IMG/VR virus record: IMGVR_UViG_2724679538_000004
Location: 32,001 to 96,000 of that record
DNA length: 64,000 nt
DNA from: a virus
Taxonomy: Duplodnaviria > Heunggongvirae > Uroviricota > Caudoviricetes
Direction: 5' to 3' (one strand)
Of the stretch, positions 417-53,878 are shown piece by piece. The translations under genes and the position numbers were made by a program. How positions within the stretch are numbered: position 1 is the stretch's first letter; every line of letters starts with the position of its first letter. Below the pieces are notes generated by a model. That model did not search any database. It had not been told where the DNA came from and saw only the letters and a program-made list of their open reading frames with translations.

Positions 417-689
417 AAAGAATTATGGCGCTTGTTGAGGAAGTCACTCCTCTTACGCACTTTGTTTTGCCATGCCGGCAGTTAGCTTCTGCCTTTGACT
501 ATTCATGCGGCAACCCCGCATTTCGCCACAATGGGCAATTCACTTTAATGGAATAAACTGGCCGTTGTGTCGATTTAATTAGCATGGCCTTACCATGCTA
601 ATTTATTCAACTTGTACAATCCTACAAATCTATCCACTCAGGCTTACACCGTCTTCGTTATTGTAGAAATGAGGATCATCAGCGTTGAA

Positions 690-905
690 TCAGCTTAGAG
701 CAACGACATTTGCTGCTGCTGGGCCTTTAGCCCCATTCTCGATAGAGAATTCGACCTGCTGGCCTTCTTCCAAAGTGCGGAAATTATTACTCTGAATTGC
801 CGAAAAATGTACAAAAACATCTTTACTGCCATCAGCAGGAGAAATAAAGCCAAAGCCTTTATCAGAGTTAAACCATTTTACTAAACCAGTCATTTTATTA
901 GACAT
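690..905 (-). CDS. cold-shock protein, CspA family
   Basis: Product [23 protein letters not shown]...VFVHFSAIQ carries the RNP1/RNP2 motifs of the cold-shock domain; ATG at 905 preceded by AAGAAGG; the longer track ORF (to 1001) lacks an RBS. Confidence 0.85.
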
Positions 906-1209
906 AGATATTACCTTCTTAATTTTGTGAGCCACATAGTGCGGCGAGAATTTGATCTGTATAGATTGGGACTTACTTAGGCACTTAAGGAGGAGACTCA
1001 CGAAGAAGGGAAATCAGAAGATAACACTGAACTGAGACTGCTTTACTAAAACTGCTTACATAAGGTCTGTCTTGCAAACCAACGATGCTATTAACGCATA
1101 CCCTTTCTTTTCATGCAACCTTTATTTTTCAAAGATAACTAATTTTTGTCACCGTTGGTTTAGTAAACGTTAACGAACCAGACGATGACAGACACCTTTA
1201 CAGAGAACA

Positions 1210-42770: not shown

Positions 42771-42889
42771 CGGTTGCAACTTATTGATAATGGCGGTCAC
42801 AATTTGATTCTTTTCTATAAGAATCCGTTGATCGCCACTACTCCCCTTCCATACCTGCAACCACATCCTTAAATATCAATTAGTTATAG

Positions 42890-43766
42890 TTGTTTATACC
42901 AATAAGAAAACAACTAAATAACAGATCAACGAAATGTCAATGCTTTCGCCCGATTTGGTCTATAAAATTGACGTTTTCACACATCACTTCTTATACCCGC
43001 AATCCTACGCAGCAGACAGCGCCACAGCGTCCAATTTTCACCACAGATGACCCAACAACTACCAATAAAAACACACGCTCAAAATCGCTCCCGTTGCGTT
43101 ACACAACCATATAAACAACTTGTTTTCAGGCATAACAAAACAACTAAATAACACATATGCCATTCCCCAAAACAACCAACCTCTTTATGGCAGGCTACCG
43201 AAAAGACCCACCTCTTCTTCCCAGGCTACCGGACAACCAACCTAACTTTCACAGGCAATTCGAAACCTCCATACGCGCGATACCCACGACACGCCATTCC
43301 CCAAATAGCGAAGAACCACCGAAACCCCAACGAAGCTTGTAACCGCAAGGATTTCCTCAATCCCAAAAGACACGAAACAGAACATTCGAGGGAAACGCCA
43401 TTACCCAATACACGAATAACTACAAAAGCCTTTCACGCACTCCATACAAGCAACTCAAACACAATAACGAAAGGAATCGCCCACCTGCCATTACTCCATA
43501 CACGGAGAAGAACAATCACCAAAACGTCGAGAACAACCCAGAGAAGAACCACCGCAAAACGAACGAAACCATATAAACCGACAGAGAGAACTACACACCC
43601 AATTCACCAACAGAAATAGTCGCCGTATAGAACGTTCAGGGAGGAGTGAGTATTAACGCCTATAGAGAGCTTGAGACAGATAAAACACGAAGAAAACACA
43701 ACATGTATAACGGAGAAGCCAGGTATGTATAAGTGGGGAGTGGAGGAGGGGTGTCGCCTCCTTTTT
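42890..43766 (+). ncRNA. A+C-rich, G/T-poor tract with ~100-bp-spaced GCCATT(A/C)CCCAA-type repeats; candidate long non-coding RNA(s) ending at hairpin GGAGG-loop-CCTCC plus T5 (43742-43766)
   Basis: Strong strand-asymmetric composition; promoter-like AAAACAACTAAATAACA at about 42913 and 43138; only low-complexity ORFs without RBS. Confidence 0.3.
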
Positions 43767-43830
43767 CGTATTTATTCAACTCCTGATTTTATCCCCCCGT
43801 AAAACCCCTACGGTCAGCCTTCGGTCCATA

Positions 43831-47294: not shown

Positions 47295-47320
47295 AGAGGG
47301 CCAGAAACGGCCCTTTCTCT
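47295..47320 (+). terminator. rho-independent terminator (AGAGGGCC-AGAAAC-GGCCCTTT)
   Basis: Hairpin with T-rich tail after the stop at 47288. Confidence 0.6.
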
Positions 47321-47324
47321 ATAG

Positions 47325-47455
47325 CCACCAGCTGCCGCAGGGAAATTTTCAGAAACGGCGAGGAACGCATTCATGAACCGACGGGAAACGGCCAAGATTT
47401 TTTCGGGAAACGGCTGCATTCGCCTTTATGTAGAAAAACATCGGGAAGCTGGTGG
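47325..47455 (+). repeat. second GGA-rich repeat array (GGGAAATTTTC, AGAAACGGCG, GGGAAACGGCC, GGGAAACGGCT) enclosed by 9-bp inverted repeat CCACCAGCT / AGCTGGTGG
   Basis: Same core motif as the 43831-43970 array; flanking inverted repeat about 110 nt apart. Confidence 0.6.
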
Positions 47456-47880
47456 AATCCAACCAGCGGTTGTCGGACAGGTGAGCGCGGAAAATAATGA
47501 TGACTTTCGTCGCCTGAGACATACAGATTTCTTTCATAGCGTAATCACATACGTGATTAAGTAGTGTGATTATGTGAAAAATCACGCGCACATAATACGC
47601 GAGCGGATAAAGAACAACACAAAATGCCGATCCGCGCCGACAAATAAACGCGGATCACATAGCAAGACTAATAACCAATGATTAGCCATACATTATAACG
47701 CAATATAACGCGATTTAAGCGCGTTAATGTGTTAAGTAATGGGTATGTACTGGTAAGGATGTAAAAGCGCGTCTATGGTGTTATTTTGGCGCTTATTTTT
47801 ATGTTGTTGGAGTGAGTCAAAGACAATAAAAAAACGCGCCATTGATGGCGCGTTATTGTGGAAGTATTGGAAACGAAAAA

Positions 47881-47899
47881 AGCGCCCATAGTGGGCGCT
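47881..47899. terminator. hairpin AGCGCCCATAGTGGGCGCT flanked by A-run and T-run (bidirectional)
   Basis: Identical copy at 48151-48168; lies at the 3' end of the minus-strand gene 47904..48134. Confidence 0.6.
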
Positions 47900-47903
47900 C
47901 GAT

Positions 47904-48134
47904 TTATTTATGTAAACTGATTTCAAATCCCATTTCTACAAACGCTTTCAGCATTAAAAATATATCAGCGTCGTTCACCTCAGCTTTTTTGCGCTCCTGG
48001 TCGCTCAATAAGTCAATTTTGCGCGTCGTTTCATCTATAAGCTCGACTGCGCGCCCAGCGTAACCAGCGATCCCAGCGATCCGATTTACATAATATTCAT
48101 TGTGGACGTTAACGCCAGCGATAAGAATAAACAT
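47904..48134 (-). CDS. hypothetical protein
   Basis: 76-aa ORF bracketed by two copies of the same terminator hairpin. Confidence 0.4.
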   Translation of the reverse strand: MFILIAGVNVHNEYYVNRIAGIAGYAGRAVELIDETTRKIDLLSDQERKKAEVNDADIFLMLKAFVEMGFEISLHK

Positions 48135-48150
48135 GATTAAGCTCCTTAAA

Positions 48151-48168
48151 AGCGCCCATAGTGGGCGC
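48151..48168. terminator. hairpin AGCGCCCATAGTGGGCGC (second copy)
   Basis: Between minus-strand genes 48182..48832 and 47904..48134. Confidence 0.55.
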
Positions 48169-48181
48169 CAGATTCCATTAA

Positions 48182-48832
48182 TTACGCTTTGAAAGCATCA
48201 GCCAGATAGTTATAGAAATCATTTTTAATAAAGCGATATTGCTGCGTACCAGCTTTTGCGCTTCCCATTCCTTTGACTTTCTCAACAAGTCCAAGACGTT
48301 CACAAAGATTAATTAGCTGATTAGCTTGAGTATAGCCAGCGTCAAGTTTAATCTCACACGCTTTTTTAGCTTCATTCATTAAATCGAAAACAGCGCCATT
48401 TGTGAACGTCTCGATCTCGTCGTTAATCATATCGATTAAAGCGAATACACGAGATCCTGACATATCAGCGACGGAATATACACATGTTCCAGCTTTAATA
48501 GATTTAACAAGATAAACCAGCTTTTCCAGTGAATAACTATTAGTCATAGCGTCACGGAAAAATACTTCTGGGGCTTGTTTACTTGCTTTAATCGCATAGT
48601 AGAAAACAGAACATAATTTATCGTCTTCTACTGCGTTAACCACGTTGTTGATGAAGTAAGCAAGCTTAGTGGTCGCAGCTTGCATATTTGCTTTGTCTGC
48701 TTTAGTGTGCGTACCATTTTTATAATGTTCGTTATATGTTTGAGTTGCCAGATCTGCTTTTTCGCGCAGCTCATCGGATACAATGGAAGCAGCTTCAATG
48801 ATGGATTTTTTAGAAATGATAATGTTAGCCAT
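48182..48832 (-). CDS. hypothetical protein (AT-rich codon usage)
   Basis: 216-aa ORF with GGAAAATTATC RBS context. Confidence 0.55.
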   Translation of the reverse strand: MANIIISKKSIIEAASIVSDELREKADLATQTYNEHYKNGTHTKADKANMQAATTKLAYFINNVVNAVEDDKLCSVFYYAIKASKQAPEVFFRDAMTNSYSLEKLVYLVKSIKAGTCVYSVADMSGSRVFALIDMINDEIETFTNGAVFDLMNEAKKACEIKLDAGYTQANQLINLCERLGLVEKVKGMGSAKAGTQQYRFIKNDFYNYLADAFKA

Positions 48833-49115
48833 GATAATTTTCCTTATGTAAATTTAAAATTTATTGTCGTTAGCGTCTTCGCTTTCGACGAGTTCAATTA
48901 TCGATACGCGAAAAAAGATTTCAAGTGTTTTTTTAAATTTTTTTGCAGGGACGAAAGTCCTAGAAATAAAAGCGAGATCGTCGAAGGTGTTCCCTAAATA
49001 AATAATCGATTCCGGCTTTTGACCTTATATATATTTAGGTTATTTAATTTATAGAATATAAAGAAGTGACATGAAAAATAATAACCGGACTTAGCCGGTT
49101 ATTAACCTTATAGAT

Positions 49116-49424
49116 TTATTGGACAGACTCTACAGCCTTACGATTGGTGTCAAATAGCGCATCAACGAACTGTGCCGATGACTCGCTAGATTCGCAATCC
49201 AACATTGCCCGTTCTTCATTTGCCACTTTCTTACACAGTTCCACATTCTCACCTATCGCTTTTCCTGCTTTTACGGCTGCCGAAAATTGATACATGCAAA
49301 CTGATACATTCTGAGACGTTGAGCACACGTCATTCATCAGCGACTGAATGACAGGCTTATAGTCCATTGCATTTGCCGCAACTGAGCAAAGTAAAAATAA
49401 TGGTGGTAACAATATCGATTTCAT
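49116..49424 (-). CDS. small secreted Cys-containing protein
   Basis: Signal peptide MKSILLPPLFLLCSVAANA. Confidence 0.5.
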   Translation of the reverse strand: MKSILLPPLFLLCSVAANAMDYKPVIQSLMNDVCSTSQNVSVCMYQFSAAVKAGKAIGENVELCKKVANEERAMLDCESSESSAQFVDALFDTNRKAVESVQ

Positions 49425-49427
49425 AAC

Positions 49428-49952
49428 TCAAAAAGGCAAAATTCGTTCAACCCAATCGAACAAAACAACTATTTTTCTACCGTTCTCGACACGTAGTGTA
49501 ACCTGACAAGCATCTGCGCCTGCTGACACCCCCTCAATTTCACGGCCATCCGCCATGTACACCCTTATAGATTTGTTTGCTTTATGGGCCTGGTTGCAAA
49601 TTGCAAAAAAATCACGGCGTGATGGCCGATTGTCAACATAATCAGGGTGAACTGTTAATCGACCTTTGAAATCGTGAGCGATACCGTCAACCACACCTGA
49701 TTCAATTGTACTAATGCGTTCAAGTGGAAGCCTTATACGATTTTCTTTGTCAAAAGGGGCTGGGCAAAGATCAACTTTGTTACGAGATGGCATGAGACCA
49801 TAAACGTACATGCAAAACGCCTGGCCATCTTCGAGAGTGGCCCTTACAGGAATTTGTTCTCTGCGCCAGAACATCAGGAGGTTTTCAATATTCTTATAAT
49901 CTCGCGGCCAGACCTCCGCTGGCACGCCGTAGGTGATGTCTTTAGTCGTCAT
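49428..49952 (-). CDS. hypothetical protein
   Basis: ATG at 49952, 4 nt after the lipoprotein stop; the longer track ORF would overlap the upstream gene. Confidence 0.5.
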   Translation of the reverse strand: MTTKDITYGVPAEVWPRDYKNIENLLMFWRREQIPVRATLEDGQAFCMYVYGLMPSRNKVDLCPAPFDKENRIRLPLERISTIESGVVDGIAHDFKGRLTVHPDYVDNRPSRRDFFAICNQAHKANKSIRVYMADGREIEGVSAGADACQVTLRVENGRKIVVLFDWVERILPF

Positions 49953-49956
49953 GTCA

Positions 49957-50376
49957 TTATAAAGTTGTTGGCAATATATCCATTGTACCATCCCAGGTTG
50001 TGAAGACCCGATATGTTTTAGCATCGTTTTGTTTTAGCCTTATTTCTCGCTCCATCCGAGAAGGGTTAAATGCGCAAAGCCCTGAGCTTTCAATTGATGT
50101 GCCAACTATCCACTCACCTTCATTAAGAAAGAAGGTGACTTTTTCTCCTGGTTTCAACTTGGCGGATGTCTCACCATTGATAAAAATGGAGGCATAACAG
50201 CCTGAGCCTACAAGACCTTTGTCTCGAACAATCGTTAATGTTGATACATTTGGCGTCTGGTATTTGAAGATTCTTTCTTGAGGCGCAACTTTCGCTTTTG
50301 AAACTGAGATAGAGGAGGATGAACACCCAATTAGAGAGGCCCCAAACATTAAAATAATGAATTTTGTAGCTTTCAT
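49957..50376 (-). CDS. lipoprotein
   Basis: MKATKFIILMFGASLIGCSSS is a signal peptide with lipobox LIGC. Confidence 0.6.
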   Translation of the reverse strand: MKATKFIILMFGASLIGCSSSSISVSKAKVAPQERIFKYQTPNVSTLTIVRDKGLVGSGCYASIFINGETSAKLKPGEKVTFFLNEGEWIVGTSIESSGLCAFNPSRMEREIRLKQNDAKTYRVFTTWDGTMDILPTTL

Positions 50377-50400
50377 AGTACCTAACATATTAATTCATCG

Positions 50401-50943
50401 TTATTTATTGATTAGTGTTCTCTTGTAAATATCTACCAGAAGATCGTCTCTTTTAATATCGGTGCAGATATCATCGAATGTCAATGTTTTCGATAATATG
50501 CTTGCATTGTACTTTTCTATGAAACATTTTAGCGCCAGGTGGTCCTTGAAAATGAATGAAAAACCATATGATGAATCGCTATCATCTATGTATCTTTTGG
50601 CTTTAGGATAACCGTATAAATTTGAATGTAATTCTAATTTACCAGGCGACACACCATCACATGAATTCATAATCGAGAACAAACACGATAAATTGTATGG
50701 GTAAAATACAATACCGCAATTGGTTTTTACCCCCTCAATATCTTTAACATATATATAGTGTTCATAATCGTCTTTATATGAAGCCTTAAGCTTATATCTG
50801 ATTAGTTTATGTTCGCCATTTTGTATTGGAGATAGATATGCCTGTTTTGCTAAACAAGATTTTTTTGACTTATAATATGTATGAATGCATTCTTTAATCT
50901 GCCTTGCACTCAAATAGTTATTGTCAATATTTAGCTTTCCCAT
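50401..50943 (-). CDS. hypothetical protein (Lys/Asn/Tyr/Ile-rich, AT-rich codon usage)
   Basis: 180-aa ORF, first gene of a four-gene reverse-strand cluster. Confidence 0.5.
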   Translation of the reverse strand: MGKLNIDNNYLSARQIKECIHTYYKSKKSCLAKQAYLSPIQNGEHKLIRYKLKASYKDDYEHYIYVKDIEGVKTNCGIVFYPYNLSCLFSIMNSCDGVSPGKLELHSNLYGYPKAKRYIDDSDSSYGFSFIFKDHLALKCFIEKYNASILSKTLTFDDICTDIKRDDLLVDIYKRTLINK

Positions 50944-51043
50944 ATAGCTCTATAAACTGAAACCAAAACGCTTGTTAATAGCCTACAAACCTCGTTCAGC
51001 CAATCAAGTTTTTTTCTCAGCCGGAGGCTTGCGCTTATAAAAA

Positions 51044-51059
51044 TGTGATCAATATCACG
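51044..51059. promoter_or_regulatory. CRP-like site TGTGATCAATATCACG upstream of the reverse-strand cluster
   Basis: Matches TGTGA-N6-TCACA at 9 of 10 positions; about 100 bp upstream of the start at 50943. Confidence 0.35.
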
Positions 51060-51262
51060 CATTGTCGCTCACTACATACACGTGAACTCTCACAATCTTC
51101 TAGTTACGCCTGATTGATTTATAGCCTTTTTGGTGAAAACAAGAGCAAATTGTGAATTTTATTTAATATCAGAGGATAATTACTTCAACAACATCATTGA
51201 TGTGCCTCTTTTGACAAGTAAGCACATCATAATCTTAGTAATTAGAGGAAGAAGATAGAACG

Positions 51263-51559
51263 TTACGGTAGCCTGCTAAGGATTTCGTCCAGATCTTCCT
51301 TAGTCAAATTTGAGTTTTCATAAATCTGCATAATCCTTTCGCGAGCTTTAGCAGAAGCTTTTGCAGTTGCGCCCAAAGAAGAAGCAATTTTGTCAAACTC
51401 GGCCATCGGCATCTTTTCAAGTACAACATTGATGATTTCAGACTTTGACAGTTTTAGGTTTTTGTCTTTCAGTTTGGCTTTAAATTTTGTTAGTTTGTTG
51501 TTCGCCTGTTCAGTTAATGCGACCTGACAATACGTTGTTTTTTTCTCGCTCATAGTCAA
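51263..51559 (-). CDS. hypothetical protein
   Basis: 98-aa ORF immediately downstream of the helicase gene on the same strand. Confidence 0.45.
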   Translation of the reverse strand: MTMSEKKTTYCQVALTEQANNKLTKFKAKLKDKNLKLSKSEIINVVLEKMPMAEFDKIASSLGATAKASAKARERIMQIYENSNLTKEDLDEILSRLP

Positions 51560-53115
51560 TCTCGTTTCAAAATCCCAAAATCAAAAGTACCACCTACTGG
51601 CAAAACGCCTTCCGCAAAACCTGGTGTTGTATCGATAATATGCTTCCGTTCGTAAGAATGAGACAGTAAGTATTTATTACTAACGTCAATAAAATCACTG
51701 ATAAAGCACACATTGGCTTGATTTTTCTTGGCTCGAAGGCCGCGACCAACACGTTGCCTCATCTCAACTTCGGCCTTTCCACCACCAGCCAGAATCACTG
51801 CCCCAACACTCGGTACATCAACACCAACATCCAGAATAGTCGACCCTATTAAAACATCTATTTCGCCGGACGCTAAACTATTCAATTTTGCTTGCCTTGT
51901 CGATTGGTTGGACTCGCCATAAATGAAGTCAACTTTCAGACCGGACTCCTTCATCATTTCCATTAAGATCTGCCCGTGGCGCTTAAGGCGAACTAGAGTC
52001 ATACAGTTCAGAGAATGCTTTTTATACATTAACGCTTCTCGAACTATGGCCTCGTTACGACTTAGATTATATACGATCCCCAACTGATAAGCCTTTTGGT
52101 AGGCGGTACTCATGCCAACCCTAAAATTTAGATGCTTATTAGCGAGTTCAGCCTTGATTCGTGCCTCGTCTGGAATGTAGGCAATTTTATGATAGAGGAA
52201 GTATGGTTTGGCCAAAATACCTTTATCAATTAGATATTTTTCTGTGACCTTGATTTCTATGCGACCAGCCACGGCCATCAGGCGCATGTTGGCTTCGGTA
52301 GAGTCCTTCATGAAAGGGGTTGCAGTCAGCGCAAGACGATAATCTGCGTTCACACAAAGACGGGCGATATCATAGAAGTTGGAGCCGGAAGACTCATGGG
52401 CTTCTTCAAGAATGAGAAGAGAAACGCTAGAAAGAAAGCGCTTTACCAAATCTCGGCGTTTTAGATGGTAGTTTTTCTTATCTGCCGATGCGTCTCGTGG
52501 CGGCTCTTCAAGGAAGCTTGCCAATGTCTGTACCGTGGCGACGTTGATATGACGTGAAACCTGAAACTCACCAGATCCAATTACTCCAACTTTCTGACCT
52601 TTTAGCCATGATTCGCCATTTTCTGCACGGTAATCGATAGATTTCTGAAAGTTTTCTGCCATTTGATACATCAGAACAGAACGAGTGGTTAAAAATAGCG
52701 TCATGCGGCCAATTCTTGCAGCTGCTTTACATGCAACGTTAGATTTCCCGCCACCAGTTGCGATCTGCGCAATCATCATCCCTTCTCGTACTAGAGTTTC
52801 TACCGTCTGATCCTGATATGCATAATCTGGGTTATATGGGAAAGGGTTAACAACTGGGTTTGGTTTCCCAAGTGCAGGGGCTTTGTCCTTTCGAATATGT
52901 AAGCATTTGATGCCTGCTTTATTCAGATTCGAGGCTACAGGCTTCGCGAATCCAGCGGGGAACGAGTTTTTGCTCCAGTTGAACATGGTGCTTGTGCCTT
53001 TCCAATCACCAGCTTCAACTTCATAGCTCAGCATCTCTTGCACGAGTCGTTTTACATTGTCATCAGCGCCAGAAATCAGTGCGTTTACAGCATTAGATAC
53101 AATCCGAACTGTCAT
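51556..53115 (-). CDS. superfamily 2 DNA helicase (DEAD/DEAH-box, type III restriction res-like)
   Basis: Walker A TGGGKS (motif I), motif II LLILEEAHE, C-terminal helicase domain. Confidence 0.75.
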   Translation of the reverse strand: MTVRIVSNAVNALISGADDNVKRLVQEMLSYEVEAGDWKGTSTMFNWSKNSFPAGFAKPVASNLNKAGIKCLHIRKDKAPALGKPNPVVNPFPYNPDYAYQDQTVETLVREGMMIAQIATGGGKSNVACKAAARIGRMTLFLTTRSVLMYQMAENFQKSIDYRAENGESWLKGQKVGVIGSGEFQVSRHINVATVQTLASFLEEPPRDASADKKNYHLKRRDLVKRFLSSVSLLILEEAHESSGSNFYDIARLCVNADYRLALTATPFMKDSTEANMRLMAVAGRIEIKVTEKYLIDKGILAKPYFLYHKIAYIPDEARIKAELANKHLNFRVGMSTAYQKAYQLGIVYNLSRNEAIVREALMYKKHSLNCMTLVRLKRHGQILMEMMKESGLKVDFIYGESNQSTRQAKLNSLASGEIDVLIGSTILDVGVDVPSVGAVILAGGGKAEVEMRQRVGRGLRAKKNQANVCFISDFIDVSNKYLLSHSYERKHIIDTTPGFAEGVLPVGGTFDFGILKRD

Positions 53116-53179: not shown

Positions 53180-53878
53180 ATGGATTGTATCAGCAAAATG
53201 GATGTGAAAATCACGATTTTGCAGGTTGAAGTGGCCAACCTGCGTCCAAATTCATGGAACACCAACTCAGTAGGTGCTCAAAACTTCGAAAAACTGAAAG
53301 GATCTATCGAAAAATTGGGCTTTTTTAAGCCTATTTTGGCGCGTGAGCTTAATGACGGCATTTATGAAATCCTCGGCGGCGAACATCGCTGGCGTGCGGC
53401 CATTGAACAAGGAATTTCAACGGTTCCAGTGCTATCGGTTGGCAAAATTAGCGACTTAGTAGCGAAACAGATGTCACTCGTGGACAACGAACGCTACGGC
53501 GAAGACGATCAGATTGCTTTGCAGCGCTTTATTGAAGAAATTCAGTCTGAACTCGATTACCAGTTGTCAGAAATTGCCCCTTATGACGATGAAATTTCTA
53601 TGGTTCTTGCAAAAGAGGCTGCAATTGACCTCGAAGCTCTTGAGGCACTGTCGCGTGGGGAGGATGAGCCTGTAGATACTGACAAGCGTGAAAAAATCGA
53701 ACGCGCCGGAACAGATCATCAGACCATGCGTTTCAAAGTTACCTTTGATGCGTCAGATCGTGTTGCCGACACAATAAAAAACATCATCAAAGAACAAGCA
53801 ATTAACACTGGCAATGAAATGGAGAACGCTGGTGAGGCTTTGGTGTGGCTGGTCGACTACTACAAGGAGCGTATGTAA
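53180..53878 (+). CDS. ParB N-terminal domain (ParB/sulfiredoxin-fold) protein
   Basis: ILGGEHRWRAA resembles the ParB box II GxxRxxA motif. Confidence 0.6.
   Translation: MDCISKMDVKITILQVEVANLRPNSWNTNSVGAQNFEKLKGSIEKLGFFKPILARELNDGIYEILGGEHRWRAAIEQGISTVPVLSVGKISDLVAKQMSLVDNERYGEDDQIALQRFIEEIQSELDYQLSEIAPYDDEISMVLAKEAAIDLEALEALSRGEDEPVDTDKREKIERAGTDHQTMRFKVTFDASDRVADTIKNIIKEQAINTGNEMENAGEALVWLVDYYKERM

What the first reader, a model, noticed from the sequence alone, without database searches (positions are those of the whole stretch)
49116..51062. Reverse-strand AT-rich island encoding a lipoprotein, a secreted protein and two unknown proteins, with a CRP-like site upstream
Four co-directional minus-strand genes with visibly AT-rich codon usage encode an unknown cytoplasmic protein, a lipoprotein (lipobox LIGC), a 174-aa protein and a small secreted Cys-containing protein. 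Upstream lies TGTGATCAATATCACG, close to the CRP consensus. Lipoproteins and periplasmic proteins on phage genomes are classic superinfection-exclusion or receptor-masking factors (T5 Llp, phi80 Cor); here they are clustered with unknown partners and possibly placed under host catabolite control, which would make a lysogenic-conversion module.
Basis: partly seen in the sequence, partly recalled or inferred. Interest (0 to 1): 0.55.

Follow-up and report, generated by a model that had tools for sequence, protein, structure and literature searches.

The report
Phage-plasmid cargo slot with orphan FljA

Summary
The four minus-strand genes are real: pN is far below pS for all of them. They lie in an SSU5/pHCM2/pMT1-type phage-plasmid, between a DEAD-box helicase plus a 98-aa gene and a conserved 216-aa gene.

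- **The "174-aa protein"** is a full-length FljA-family member (Pfam PF03614, E 1.6e-83; 35% identical to Salmonella FljA). It has no partner flagellin gene. It is the constant gene of this slot and occurs in 831 PLSDB plasmids, 341 of them from Klebsiella.
- **The lipoprotein** is confirmed. It is a divergent DUF2846-type beta-sandwich with no detectable likeness to known exclusion lipoproteins.
- **The secreted protein** is confirmed, with a signal peptide and four conserved cysteines.
- **AT-richness** is only partly true. The low-GC patch is 49957-51559 (GC 0.358), centred on the 180-aa gene (GC 0.313). The FljA-like gene has the window's average GC.
- **The CRP-like palindrome** is no more frequent than chance within the window. 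However, it is kept, with differing spacers, in four diverged copies of the 180-aa gene cassette, so it is probably functional.

Most likely this is a mosaic lysogenic-conversion slot built around an RNA-binding translational repressor. Whether its target is host fliC is unproven. The exclusion idea remains untested.

The parts
49079..49104 (-). Terminator-like hairpin plus T-run, closing the co-directional gene run just after the 102-aa gene
   Evidence: It is the only terminator-like site found in 48700-51700: TAATAACCGGCTAAGTCCGGTTATTA followed by TTTTT.
49116..49424 (-). 102-aa secreted (periplasmic) protein of unknown function. Signal peptide MKSILLPPLFLLCSVAANA|M; four conserved Cys in the mature part.
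   Evidence: phrog_9536 at 5.8e-55, no Pfam match. The cysteines are conserved in relatives, including Klebsiella. Present in 259 PLSDB plasmids. dN/dS is 0.19-0.43. Its ATG lies 3 nt after the FljA-like stop codon.
49428..49952 (-). 174-aa orphan FljA-family protein (putative RNA-binding translational repressor). It is the constant gene of the slot.
   Evidence: Pfam PF03614 at E 1.6e-83, 279 bits, covering profile 1-170/170. There is also a weak Hfq/Sm match over residues 120-162, E 0.0034. It is 35% identical over its full length to Salmonella FljA and to the E. coli FljA-like protein. 27 columns are invariant across both clades. dN/dS is about 0.1. It keeps the same position in every relative examined and occurs in 831 plasmids.
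49957..50376 (-). Outer-membrane lipoprotein (139 aa from M5; an upstream ATG at 50388 gives 143 aa). Lipobox LIGC, Ser at +2, two invariant Cys in the mature part. Beta-sandwich fold, divergent DUF2846 type.
   Evidence: phrog_890 'lipoprotein' at 1.7e-48. Alignment of homologues. AF2 model with pLDDT 76.7. 6 of 14 homologues hit PF11008. No specific fold match. Present in 415 plasmids. dN/dS is 0.06-0.13.
50401..50943 (-). 180-aa cytoplasmic protein of a very small family. It is the AT-rich cargo gene (GC 0.313).
50980..51007 (-). Conserved promoter-like block: TTGATT, 16 nt, TAGGCT
   Evidence: Near-invariant in all four cassette variants, with fixed 36-nt spacing from the palindrome. It falls below the stringency of the promoter scan, so its status as a promoter is inferred.
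51044..51059 (.). CRP-type palindrome (minus strand CGTGA-TATTGA-TCACA) marking the 5' edge of the conserved 180-aa gene cassette
   Evidence: 1 mismatch to the consensus. Orthologous sites are TGTGA-CATTTG-TCACA, TGTGA-CATTCG-TCACG and TGTGA-ACTTGA-TCACA. The half-sites are kept, the spacers differ, and the 5' flanks are unrelated.
50931..51062 (-). 43-aa ORF that sets the reported end of the finding; probably not a gene
   Evidence: It overlaps the palindrome and the promoter-like block. No Pfam match and only a chance-level PHROG match.
49957..51559 (-). The true low-GC, divergent patch: lipoprotein gene, 180-aa gene, 319-nt spacer and 98-aa gene
   Evidence: GC 0.358, in the lowest 0.24% of same-size windows. 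It is 45-81% identical to the nearest relative, against 93-100% for 48700-49900 and 80-85% for the helicase gene.
51263..53115 (-). Context: the DEAD-box (UvsW-like) helicase gene (51556-53115) and the conserved 98-aa gene (51263-51559) that head the co-directional run. They are divergent from the ParB-like genes starting at 53180.
   Evidence: ORFs and annotation of relatives. No terminator-like site lies between them and the cluster.

Best explanation
**What it is (shown).** The region is the accessory-gene tail of the helicase operon of an SSU5-family phage-plasmid. It is a mosaic of three layers.
1. A family-wide core gene encoding an orphan FljA-family protein.
2. Two envelope proteins that come and go between relatives: a DUF2846-like outer-membrane lipoprotein immediately upstream, whose stop codon lies 4 nt before the FljA-like ATG, and a small 4-Cys periplasmic protein immediately downstream.
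3. A recently exchanged, AT-rich cassette carrying a 180-aa gene with its own conserved CRP-type palindrome and promoter-like block.

**How it most likely works (inferred).**
- The FljA-like protein binds the 5' leader of an mRNA and blocks its translation, as FljA does with fliC.
- In E. coli the most likely target is host fliC. The resident plasmid-prophage would then lower flagellin synthesis conditionally rather than constitutively.
- The co-transcribed envelope proteins alter the cell surface.
- Where the 180-aa cassette is present, its CRP-type site could tie transcription of the downstream genes to cAMP-CRP, the same signal that switches on the flagellar regulon.

**Status of each step.** Shown: gene identities, family membership, synteny, mosaicism, conservation of the palindrome, and expression of the orthologue in a lysogen. 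Inferred: RNA binding, fliC as the target, CRP binding, read-through from the cassette promoter, and any phenotype.
For: - **Family membership.** Full-length PF03614 match at 1.6e-83. 35% identity with E 1e-35 to Salmonella FljA, and the same to the E. coli FljA-like protein. 27 invariant columns are shared by the chromosomal and phage-plasmid clades. dN/dS is about 0.1.
- **Core status.** The gene occupies the same position in SSU5, Y. pestis pMT1-type, Kluyvera, Buttiauxella, E. coli and Klebsiella elements, even where it is only 35% identical. It occurs in 831 plasmids.
- **No partner flagellin.** No flagellin gene was found in the window.
- **Precedent.** A plasmid-borne FljA makes motile E. 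coli non-motile and acts post-transcriptionally on fliC (PMC2652032).
- **Expression in a lysogen.** In the SSU5-like phage-plasmid Cyrano of E. coli LF82, the orthologue CYRAN_114 is transcribed while the structural genes are silent. Its log2(fpkm+5) is about 4.2 in overnight LB, about 7.1 in DMEM and about 8.1 in macrophages (PMC9928086 S1 Table).
- **Operon layout.** Intergenic gaps are 3-12 nt and the only terminator-like site follows the last gene.
- **Variable cargo and mosaicism.**
- **Palindrome.** Conserved with variable spacers at a fixed distance from the promoter-like block.
Against: - The largest host group is Klebsiella (341 of 831 records), and 62 records are Y. pestis. From general knowledge these organisms make no flagella, yet the gene is intact and constrained there. 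That fits a target other than flagellin, although the same gene types also occur in motile genera, so selection could act in those hosts.
- From my own knowledge, not tested here: E. coli LF82 (carrying Cyrano) and S. Typhi CT18 (carrying pHCM2) are motile and H-typed. Any flagellin repression therefore cannot be constitutive.
- 35% identity does not guarantee the same RNA target.
- No published functional test of a phage-plasmid FljA was found.
- CRP-like sites are at chance frequency within the window.
- The inferred position of the site relative to the best promoter-like block, about -78.5, is not a canonical CRP activation position, and the transcription start site is unknown.
- In Cyrano, expression is higher in DMEM than in stationary LB. 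If DMEM's glucose lowers cAMP (my inference), that is the opposite of simple CRP activation. Cyrano lacks this cassette, however.
Confidence: 0.45

Rival explanations
1. The FljA-like protein is the phage-plasmid's own post-transcriptional regulator. It would bind a phage-plasmid mRNA, or a target common to all Enterobacteriaceae, to control maintenance, copy number or the lysis-lysogeny balance. Flagellin would be irrelevant, and chromosomal FljA could even be a domesticated offshoot of this family.
For: It is a core, syntenic gene in every lineage examined, next to the helicase and ParB-like genes. It is intact and under purifying selection in Klebsiella and Y. pestis elements. It diverges to 35% identity between lineages while keeping its position, as specificity-determining phage regulators do. 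It never has a flagellin partner. It is expressed from the resident plasmid state.
Against: No candidate target was found, and no fliC-leader-like sequence occurs in the window. All characterised family members act on fliC. The motifs shared with true FljA are strongly conserved. The same gene types move between motile and non-motile genera, which weakens the Klebsiella argument.
Confidence: 0.3
2. One reading: the lipoprotein and the periplasmic protein are superinfection-exclusion or receptor-masking factors of the T5 Llp / phi80 Cor kind, placed under catabolite control.
For: A genuine outer-membrane lipoprotein and a genuine periplasmic protein sit on a temperate element. Their presence varies between relatives, as is typical of morons. 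Another relative carries an unrelated lipoprotein in the same slot, and that gene is expressed in the lysogen (CYRAN_115). The 102-aa protein evolves faster than its neighbours, with dN/dS about 0.43. The CRP-type palindrome is conserved.
Against: No sequence match to any exclusion or defence family in Pfam, NCBIfam, PHROGs annotation or PADLOC. The fold is a generic beta-sandwich with no exclusion protein among the PDB or viral matches. The family is DUF2846-like and also occurs on non-phage plasmids of Xanthomonas, Cupriavidus and Vibrio. The palindrome belongs to the rare 180-aa cassette, not to the envelope genes.
Confidence: 0.2
3. The AT-rich 180-aa gene cassette is an independent defence or counter-defence moron, a DNA-binding or decoy domain related to the recognition module of an HNH nuclease. 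It would be functionally unrelated to the FljA-like gene and merely parked in a recombination hot spot.
Against: No PADLOC match. The model has only moderate confidence (pLDDT 67, from 4 sequences) and the fold matches are weak and heterogeneous. The fusion is a single observation without genomic context.
Confidence: 0.15

Closest known systems
FljA of Salmonella enterica (fljBA operon) and the FljA-like repressors of E. coli flk-type loci and of the S. Typhi linear plasmid pBSSB1 (z66)
   Same: Same Pfam family with a full-length match, same size (174 against 174-179 aa), and shared N-terminal (DI.YG..AE.WPR.Y) and C-terminal (P...DFF.IC ... DWV.RI) motifs. pBSSB1 shows that a plasmid-borne FljA can silence E. 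coli flagellin.
   Different: Only 35% identical. It forms a separate clade confined to phage-plasmids, with no adjacent alternative flagellin gene and no invertase switch. It is paired instead with envelope-protein genes downstream of a helicase, and it also occurs in elements of hosts without flagella.
SSU5_121 of Salmonella phage SSU5, and the pHCM2 and pMT1 orthologues
   Same: Orthologues in the same slot, 60-82% identical. GenBank already labels the SSU5 gene 'putative repressor of phase 1 flagellin' and the S. Typhi (pHCM2-size contig) protein 'repressor of fliC'.
   Different: SSU5 carries only the lipoprotein and FljA-like pair. The window adds the 102-aa gene and the AT-rich 180-aa cassette with its palindrome. 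No functional study was found.
Superinfection-exclusion and conversion lipoproteins of temperate phages (T5 Llp, phi80/N15 Cor, lambda Bor)
   Same: A small outer-membrane lipoprotein encoded in an accessory region of a temperate element.
   Different: About twice the size of Llp and Cor (sizes from memory). No sequence or fold similarity was detected, and the family is DUF2846-like.
Phage morons (autonomously expressed, compositionally foreign cargo genes)
   Same: The 180-aa cassette is AT-rich, patchily distributed and carries its own conserved upstream regulatory block. The orthologous slot is transcribed in a lysogen.
   Different: No dedicated terminator was found after the 180-aa gene, so it may feed transcription into the downstream core gene.

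Membership tests
FljA family (Pfam PF03614, repressor of phase-1 flagellin) | Full-length match to the family profile above the curated threshold | tested here: met
   279.1 bits against a cut-off of 24, E 1.6e-83, residues 5-171 on profile 1-170/170.
FljA family (Pfam PF03614, repressor of phase-1 flagellin) | Recognisable similarity to an experimentally characterised member | tested here: met
   35% identity over 171 aa with E 1e-35 to Salmonella FljA (P0081, named by NCBI). 27 columns are invariant across clades.
FljA family (Pfam PF03614, repressor of phase-1 flagellin) | Operon partner: an alternative flagellin gene (fljB/flkA type), usually with an invertase switch | tested here: not met
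   No flagellin-like sequence in the 64-kb window. The neighbours in all relatives are the helicase, small proteins, lipoproteins and the 216-aa gene.
FljA family (Pfam PF03614, repressor of phase-1 flagellin) | Binds the fliC mRNA leader and blocks FliC translation | not testable with these tools
   Needs motility and FliC assays and RNA-binding experiments. The only indirect hint is a weak Hfq/Sm-like match in the C-terminal half (E 0.0034, below threshold).
Exclusion lipoproteins (T5 Llp / phi80 Cor type) | Lipoprotein signal peptide with a lipobox and outer-membrane sorting | tested here: met
   MKATKFIILMFGASLIG|CS with Ser at +2. The lipobox Cys is invariant in 14 homologues.
Exclusion lipoproteins (T5 Llp / phi80 Cor type) | Sequence or fold relationship to a known exclusion protein | tested here: not met
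   No Pfam, NCBIfam or PADLOC match. The PHROG label is only 'lipoprotein'. The best PDB and BFVD fold matches are generic beta-sandwiches at E >= 7.8e-4.
Exclusion lipoproteins (T5 Llp / phi80 Cor type) | Blocks a phage receptor and gives an exclusion phenotype | not testable with these tools
   Requires plating assays.
DUF2846 (Pfam PF11008) | Match to the family profile | tested here: inconclusive
   The window protein itself does not match (E > 1), but 6 of 14 close homologues do (best E 1.4e-5). The predicted fold is a beta-sandwich.
CRP-dependent promoter | TGTGA-N6-TCACA site | tested here: met
   51044-51059, 1 mismatch at an outermost position.
CRP-dependent promoter | Site more frequent than chance, or conserved in orthologous regions | tested here: met
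   The frequency is at chance within the window: 2 sites against 2.76 expected. However, four diverged cassette variants keep both half-sites, use different spacers, and hold a fixed 36 nt to the promoter-like block.
CRP-dependent promoter | Site centred at a canonical activation position (-41.5, -61.5, -71.5 and so on) relative to a mapped start | tested here: inconclusive
   About -78.5 from the best promoter-like block (TTGATT, 16 nt, TAGGCT). The start site is unmapped.
CRP-dependent promoter | cAMP-CRP binding and crp-dependent transcription | not testable with these tools
   Needs a gel shift and a crp mutant.
SSU5-type phage-plasmid (context) | Synteny and similarity with SSU5/pHCM2/pMT1-type elements | tested here: met
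   DNA matches to SSU5, phage CMS-2020a, Cyrano and 454 plasmids, most of them non-mobilizable and about 110 kb among those listed. The order ABC-ParB-ParB / helicase-98-aa-...-FljA-like-216-aa is conserved.

The most novel reading that the evidence does not exclude
The FljA fold is primarily a phage-plasmid RNA-binding regulator. An orphan FljA-family repressor is a core gene of the whole SSU5 supercommunity, including elements of Klebsiella and Y. pestis, which make no flagella. It would control a non-flagellin RNA, either a phage-plasmid maintenance or lysis-lysogeny transcript or a conserved host transcript. The textbook flagellar phase-variation repressor FljA would then be a domesticated derivative. 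Alternatively, it is a conditional flagellin silencer, induced inside macrophages, that lets lysogens evade flagellin sensing.
Probability: 0.3. Interest if true: 0.65.

Novelty: new variant of a known kind. Interest (0 to 1): 0.4.

Why it matters
SSU5-type phage-plasmids are common in clinical E. coli, Salmonella (pHCM2), Klebsiella and Yersinia pestis (pMT1), yet little is known about what they do for their hosts.

- If their universally conserved FljA relative silences flagellin, a widespread mobile element would be modulating motility, H-antigen expression, flagellin-triggered immunity and sensitivity to flagellum-dependent phages.
- If it has another target, FljA-type proteins would be a broader class of RNA-binding regulators than the single textbook case suggests.

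Either outcome can be tested directly with simple genetics. The other three genes are ordinary uncharacterised cargo.

Tried and rejected
- **fliC-leader mimic in the window.** blastn-short found only chance 9-11-mers. The best one lies inside a 567-aa ORF on the other strand. Rejected.
- **Chromosomal FljA through a genome-contig scan.** The A1 profile returned only phage-plasmid-type loci. I therefore validated a from-memory FljA sequence against the protein database, which gave 97-99% identity to NCBI-named FljA.
- **pBSSB1 lookup.** The accession is not in the plasmid collection.
- **Solved structures by sequence.** Nothing for the FljA-like protein, the 180-aa protein or the lipoprotein profile.
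- **Fold searches of the lipoprotein model.** PDB and BFVD gave only generic beta-sandwiches. The afdb50 library was unavailable.
- **PADLOC.** No match for any of the four proteins.
- **Rfam and tRNA scans.** Nothing in or near the island.
- **Sigma-70 scan.** No strong promoter in the 319-nt spacer.
- **Leader hairpin upstream of the 180-aa gene.** It is predicted in relatives but has no covariation, and the window lacks the 3' arm.
- **Literature.** No paper links a phage-plasmid, SSU5, pHCM2 or pMT1 FljA homologue to a phenotype.
Full report
**Where the region lies**

The window is part of an SSU5-type phage-plasmid.
- The 2.8 kb around the finding matches Salmonella phage SSU5, Escherichia phages CMS-2020a, Cyrano and PhiR41_1.
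- It also matches 454 plasmids of Escherichia, Enterobacter, Yersinia, Salmonella, Citrobacter and others. 436 of them are typed non-mobilizable, and those listed are about 110 kb.
- Annotated relatives share one gene order: ABC-ATPase and two ParB-like genes on one strand; divergently, a DEAD-box helicase and a small conserved gene (98 aa here); then a variable slot; then a conserved 216-aa gene.
- The finding is that variable slot.

**Checking the observation**

The four ORFs exist as described.

| Gene | Coordinates (minus strand) | Notes |
|---|---|---|
| 102 aa | 49116-49424 | signal peptide MKSILLPPLFLLCSVAANA\|M |
| 174 aa | 49428-49952 | an upstream ATG would give 198 aa, but homologues start at MT..DITYG |
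| 143 aa | 49957-50388 | homologues start at M5, position 50376 |
| 180 aa | 50401-50943 | no hydrophobic segment |

- The gaps between them are 3, 4 and 12 nt. The only terminator-like hairpin in 48700-51700 lies just after the last gene, at 49104-49079.
- All four have homologues with pN far below pS. dN/dS is about 0.1 for the 174-aa gene, 0.06-0.13 for the lipoprotein gene, 0.17-0.28 for the 180-aa gene among relatives, and 0.19-0.43 for the 102-aa gene. They are real genes.
- The lipoprotein precursor reads MKATKFIILMFGASLIG|CSSSS, with Ser at +2. By the E. coli +2 rule (general knowledge) that predicts outer-membrane sorting. The lipobox Cys and two further Cys are invariant in 14 homologues.
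- The 102-aa protein has four Cys conserved in relatives, including Klebsiella ones.
- The 174-aa and 180-aa proteins have no hydrophobic segment.

Composition only partly matches the description.

| Feature | GC |
|---|---|
| Whole window | 0.451 |
| 174-aa gene | 0.455 |
| 102-aa gene | 0.427 |
| Lipoprotein gene | 0.400 |
| 180-aa gene | 0.313 (lowest 0.16% of same-size windows) |

- Comparison with the closest relative (CP088541) shows three histories. Positions 48700-49900 (the 216-aa gene's 5' part, spacer, 102-aa gene and FljA-like gene) are 93-100% identical. Positions 50050-51550 (lipoprotein gene, 180-aa gene, spacer and 98-aa gene) are 45-81% identical. The helicase gene is 80-85% identical.
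- The genuinely deviant patch is therefore 49957-51559 (GC 0.358, lowest 0.24%). It is a recombination patch rather than the reported interval.

**The 174-aa protein is an FljA-family member**

- It matches Pfam PF03614 (repressor of phase-1 flagellin) end to end, at E 1.6e-83 and 279 bits against a cut-off of 24. It also has a weak sub-threshold Hfq/Sm-like match in residues 120-162. PHROGs calls the family a transcriptional repressor.
- To compare it with a real FljA, I searched a remembered Salmonella FljA sequence. It proved 97-99% identical to clusters that NCBI names 'phase 1 flagellin gene repressor FljA'.
- The window protein is 35% identical to that protein over 171 residues (E 1e-35), and 35% identical to the E. 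coli chromosomal FljA-like protein.
- A joint alignment has 27 invariant columns. They concentrate in an N-terminal D-I-x-Y-G-x-x-A-E-x-W-P-R-x-Y motif and a C-terminal P-x3-D-F-F-x-I-C ... D-W-V-x-R-I motif.
- It is thus a distinct clade of the family with its core conserved.

**It is the constant gene of the slot**

- Among the loci examined it is always present between the helicase/98-aa pair and the 216-aa gene. These include SSU5, a Y. pestis pMT1-type contig, Kluyvera, Buttiauxella, several E. coli types, two Klebsiella types, metagenomic contigs and Cyrano.
- A Klebsiella element whose copy is only 35% identical still has it in the same place.
- By tblastn it occurs in 831 PLSDB plasmids: Klebsiella 341, Escherichia 229, Enterobacter 92, Yersinia 62 and Salmonella 60. 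In 822 of them the match covers at least 80% of the protein. It also occurs in 13 phage records.
- The other genes are less widespread. The lipoprotein gene is in 415 plasmids, the 102-aa gene in 259 and the 180-aa gene in 88, all Escherichia.
- Other relatives fill the slot with unrelated genes. Cyrano, for example, has a different, oppositely oriented lipoprotein gene.
- No flagellin gene is present in the window or next to the gene in any relative.

**What is known about FljA, and about this clade**

- FljA proteins prevent translation of fliC mRNA. The plasmid pBSSB2, which carries fljA(z66), renders motile E. coli non-motile (PMC2652032).
- All characterised members accompany an alternative flagellin gene.
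- For the phage-plasmid clade I found only database labels: 'putative repressor of phase 1 flagellin' in SSU5, and 'repressor of fliC' for an S. Typhi protein on a pHCM2-size contig. I found no functional paper.
- Useful indirect data come from the LF82 study (PMC9928086). Its S1 Table gives the following for the orthologue CYRAN_114.

| Condition | log2(fpkm+5) |
|---|---|
| Overnight LB | 4.2 |
| DMEM, 1 h | 7.1-7.4 |
| DMEM, 6 h | 6.9-7.1 |
| Macrophages, 1 h and 6 h | 8.0-8.1 |

- In those same samples the structural genes stay near 3-4 in most conditions.
- The gene is therefore transcribed from the resident plasmid-prophage, and condition-dependently. The helicase and the 98-aa orthologues are also expressed.

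**The lipoprotein**

- There is no Pfam or NCBIfam match for the window protein itself, but 6 of its 14 homologues match DUF2846 (best E 1.4e-5).
- The AF2 model (pLDDT 76.7) is a beta-sandwich.
- Foldseek against the PDB and BFVD gives only generic sandwiches: PepT1 extracellular domain, transthyretin-like proteins and TssJ at E >= 7.8e-4. No exclusion protein appears among them.
- PADLOC finds nothing.
- Relatives also occur on Xanthomonas, Cupriavidus and Vibrio plasmids.

**The 180-aa protein**

- An exhaustive HMMER search of 1.84 billion representatives found three relatives.
- One of them (P0148, 348 aa) carries this domain fused to a C-terminal HNH nuclease domain.

**The CRP-like site**

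- Within the window, two sites with at most 1 mismatch are found against 2.76 expected. Taken alone the site is unremarkable.
- However, the 180-aa gene travels with about 110 nt of conserved upstream DNA. In four diverged variants the 5' edge of that block is a CRP-type palindrome:
  - CGTGA-TATTGA-TCACA in the window;
  - TGTGA-CATTTG-TCACA in the CP088541 type, a perfect match;
  - TGTGA-CATTCG-TCACG in the CP126951 type;
  - TGTGA-ACTTGA-TCACA in a metagenomic variant, also a perfect match.
- The half-sites are kept, and the only mismatches fall at the outermost positions. The spacers differ, the sequence 5' of the site is unrelated between variants, and 36 nt always separate the site from a near-invariant TTGATT-16 nt-TAGGCT block.
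- This is the pattern expected of a functional site for CRP or a CRP-like dimer.
- With that block as the promoter, the site would be centred near -78.5. That is not canonical, and the start site is unmapped.
- No terminator-like site separates the cassette from the lipoprotein, FljA-like and 102-aa genes, so read-through is possible but unproven.

**Weighing the mechanisms**

The anatomy is secure. The function is not.

For fliC as the target:
- the only known activity of the family is on fliC;
- the core motifs are strongly conserved;
- pBSSB1 provides a plasmid precedent;
- the orthologue is expressed in lysogeny.

Against fliC as the target:
- the gene is most abundant in Klebsiella elements and is present in Y. 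pestis, organisms that (from general knowledge) make no flagella;
- carriers such as LF82 and S. Typhi CT18 are, to my knowledge, motile, so any effect must be conditional.

The same gene types occur in both motile and non-motile genera, so selection in motile hosts could maintain the gene. I therefore put conditional repression of host flagellin at about 0.45 and a non-flagellin, possibly phage-plasmid, RNA target at about 0.3. A role for the envelope proteins in exclusion (about 0.2) and a defence-related role for the 180-aa cassette (about 0.15) are compatible with either.

**Novelty**

- The sequences and the homology label are already in databases.
- The window's FljA-like, 102-aa and 216-aa genes are 97-100% identical to known plasmids.
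- What is new here: the allele of the 180-aa gene (at most 74% identical to any relative); the recognition that the FljA relative is a core, orphan, syntenic gene of the whole phage-plasmid group, including non-flagellate hosts; the conserved CRP-type operator of the cassette; and the HNH-fusion lead.
- It is a variant of a known kind, of moderate interest and easily testable.

Noticed in passing
window 665-1083 (-): Full-length Rfam cspA thermoregulator (RF01766, 185.7 bits against a gathering score of 78). This implies a cold-shock protein gene with its thermosensing leader on the phage-plasmid.
   Followed up: no
window 42800-43800: An ORF-poor stretch with extreme strand asymmetry (GC skew to -0.45, AT skew to +0.51). 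It contains three tandem, degenerate 31-nt repeats at 43167-43258 and other dispersed direct repeats. This is possibly an iteron-type origin or partition site.
   Followed up: partly
window 48700-53100 compared with L001 (CP088541): Sharp mosaic boundaries. The 216-aa, 102-aa and FljA-like segment is 93-100% identical to this relative, the backbone helicase gene is 80-85%, and the lipoprotein to 98-aa segment is 45-81%. This indicates at least two recent recombination events around the FljA-like gene.
   Followed up: yes
L009 1646-1702 and L019 4832-4888: A 19-codon remnant of the FljA-like 3' end (residues 156-174, 74% identical) lies just downstream of the 102-aa gene homologue. That gene is therefore flanked by two copies of the FljA-like gene's end, which looks like a scar of cassette insertion by recombination.
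   Followed up: no
P0148, a relative of window 50401-50943: A 348-aa protein in which the 180-aa domain is fused to an HNH endonuclease domain (PF01844, above threshold). Its genomic context is unknown.
   Followed up: partly
L001 5148-5232, L009 3534-3618, L020 2915-3000 (upstream of the 180-aa gene homologues): In relatives, a 5' CCTCCGG segment can pair with the CCGGAGG Shine-Dalgarno sequence just before the start codon, a possible anti-SD hairpin. There is no covariation, and the window has lost the 3' arm and the strong SD.
   Followed up: partly
L012 3453-4052 (Klebsiella pneumoniae plasmid NZ_CP097705): A 199-aa gene in the same slot is a distant relative of the 180-aa protein (24.5% identity, E 3e-6). 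The family therefore has remote members in Klebsiella phage-plasmids.
   Followed up: no
L022 3595-4395 (phage-plasmid Cyrano, CYRAN_115): The same slot in Cyrano holds an unrelated 266-aa lipoprotein gene on the opposite strand. It is strongly transcribed in the lysogen, with log2(fpkm+5) up to 9.4. Envelope lipoproteins recur in this hot spot.
   Followed up: partly
window 47300-48180: About 0.8 kb without any long ORF, lying between the 160-aa plus-strand gene and the minus-strand genes downstream of the 216-aa gene. No Rfam family matched.
   Followed up: no
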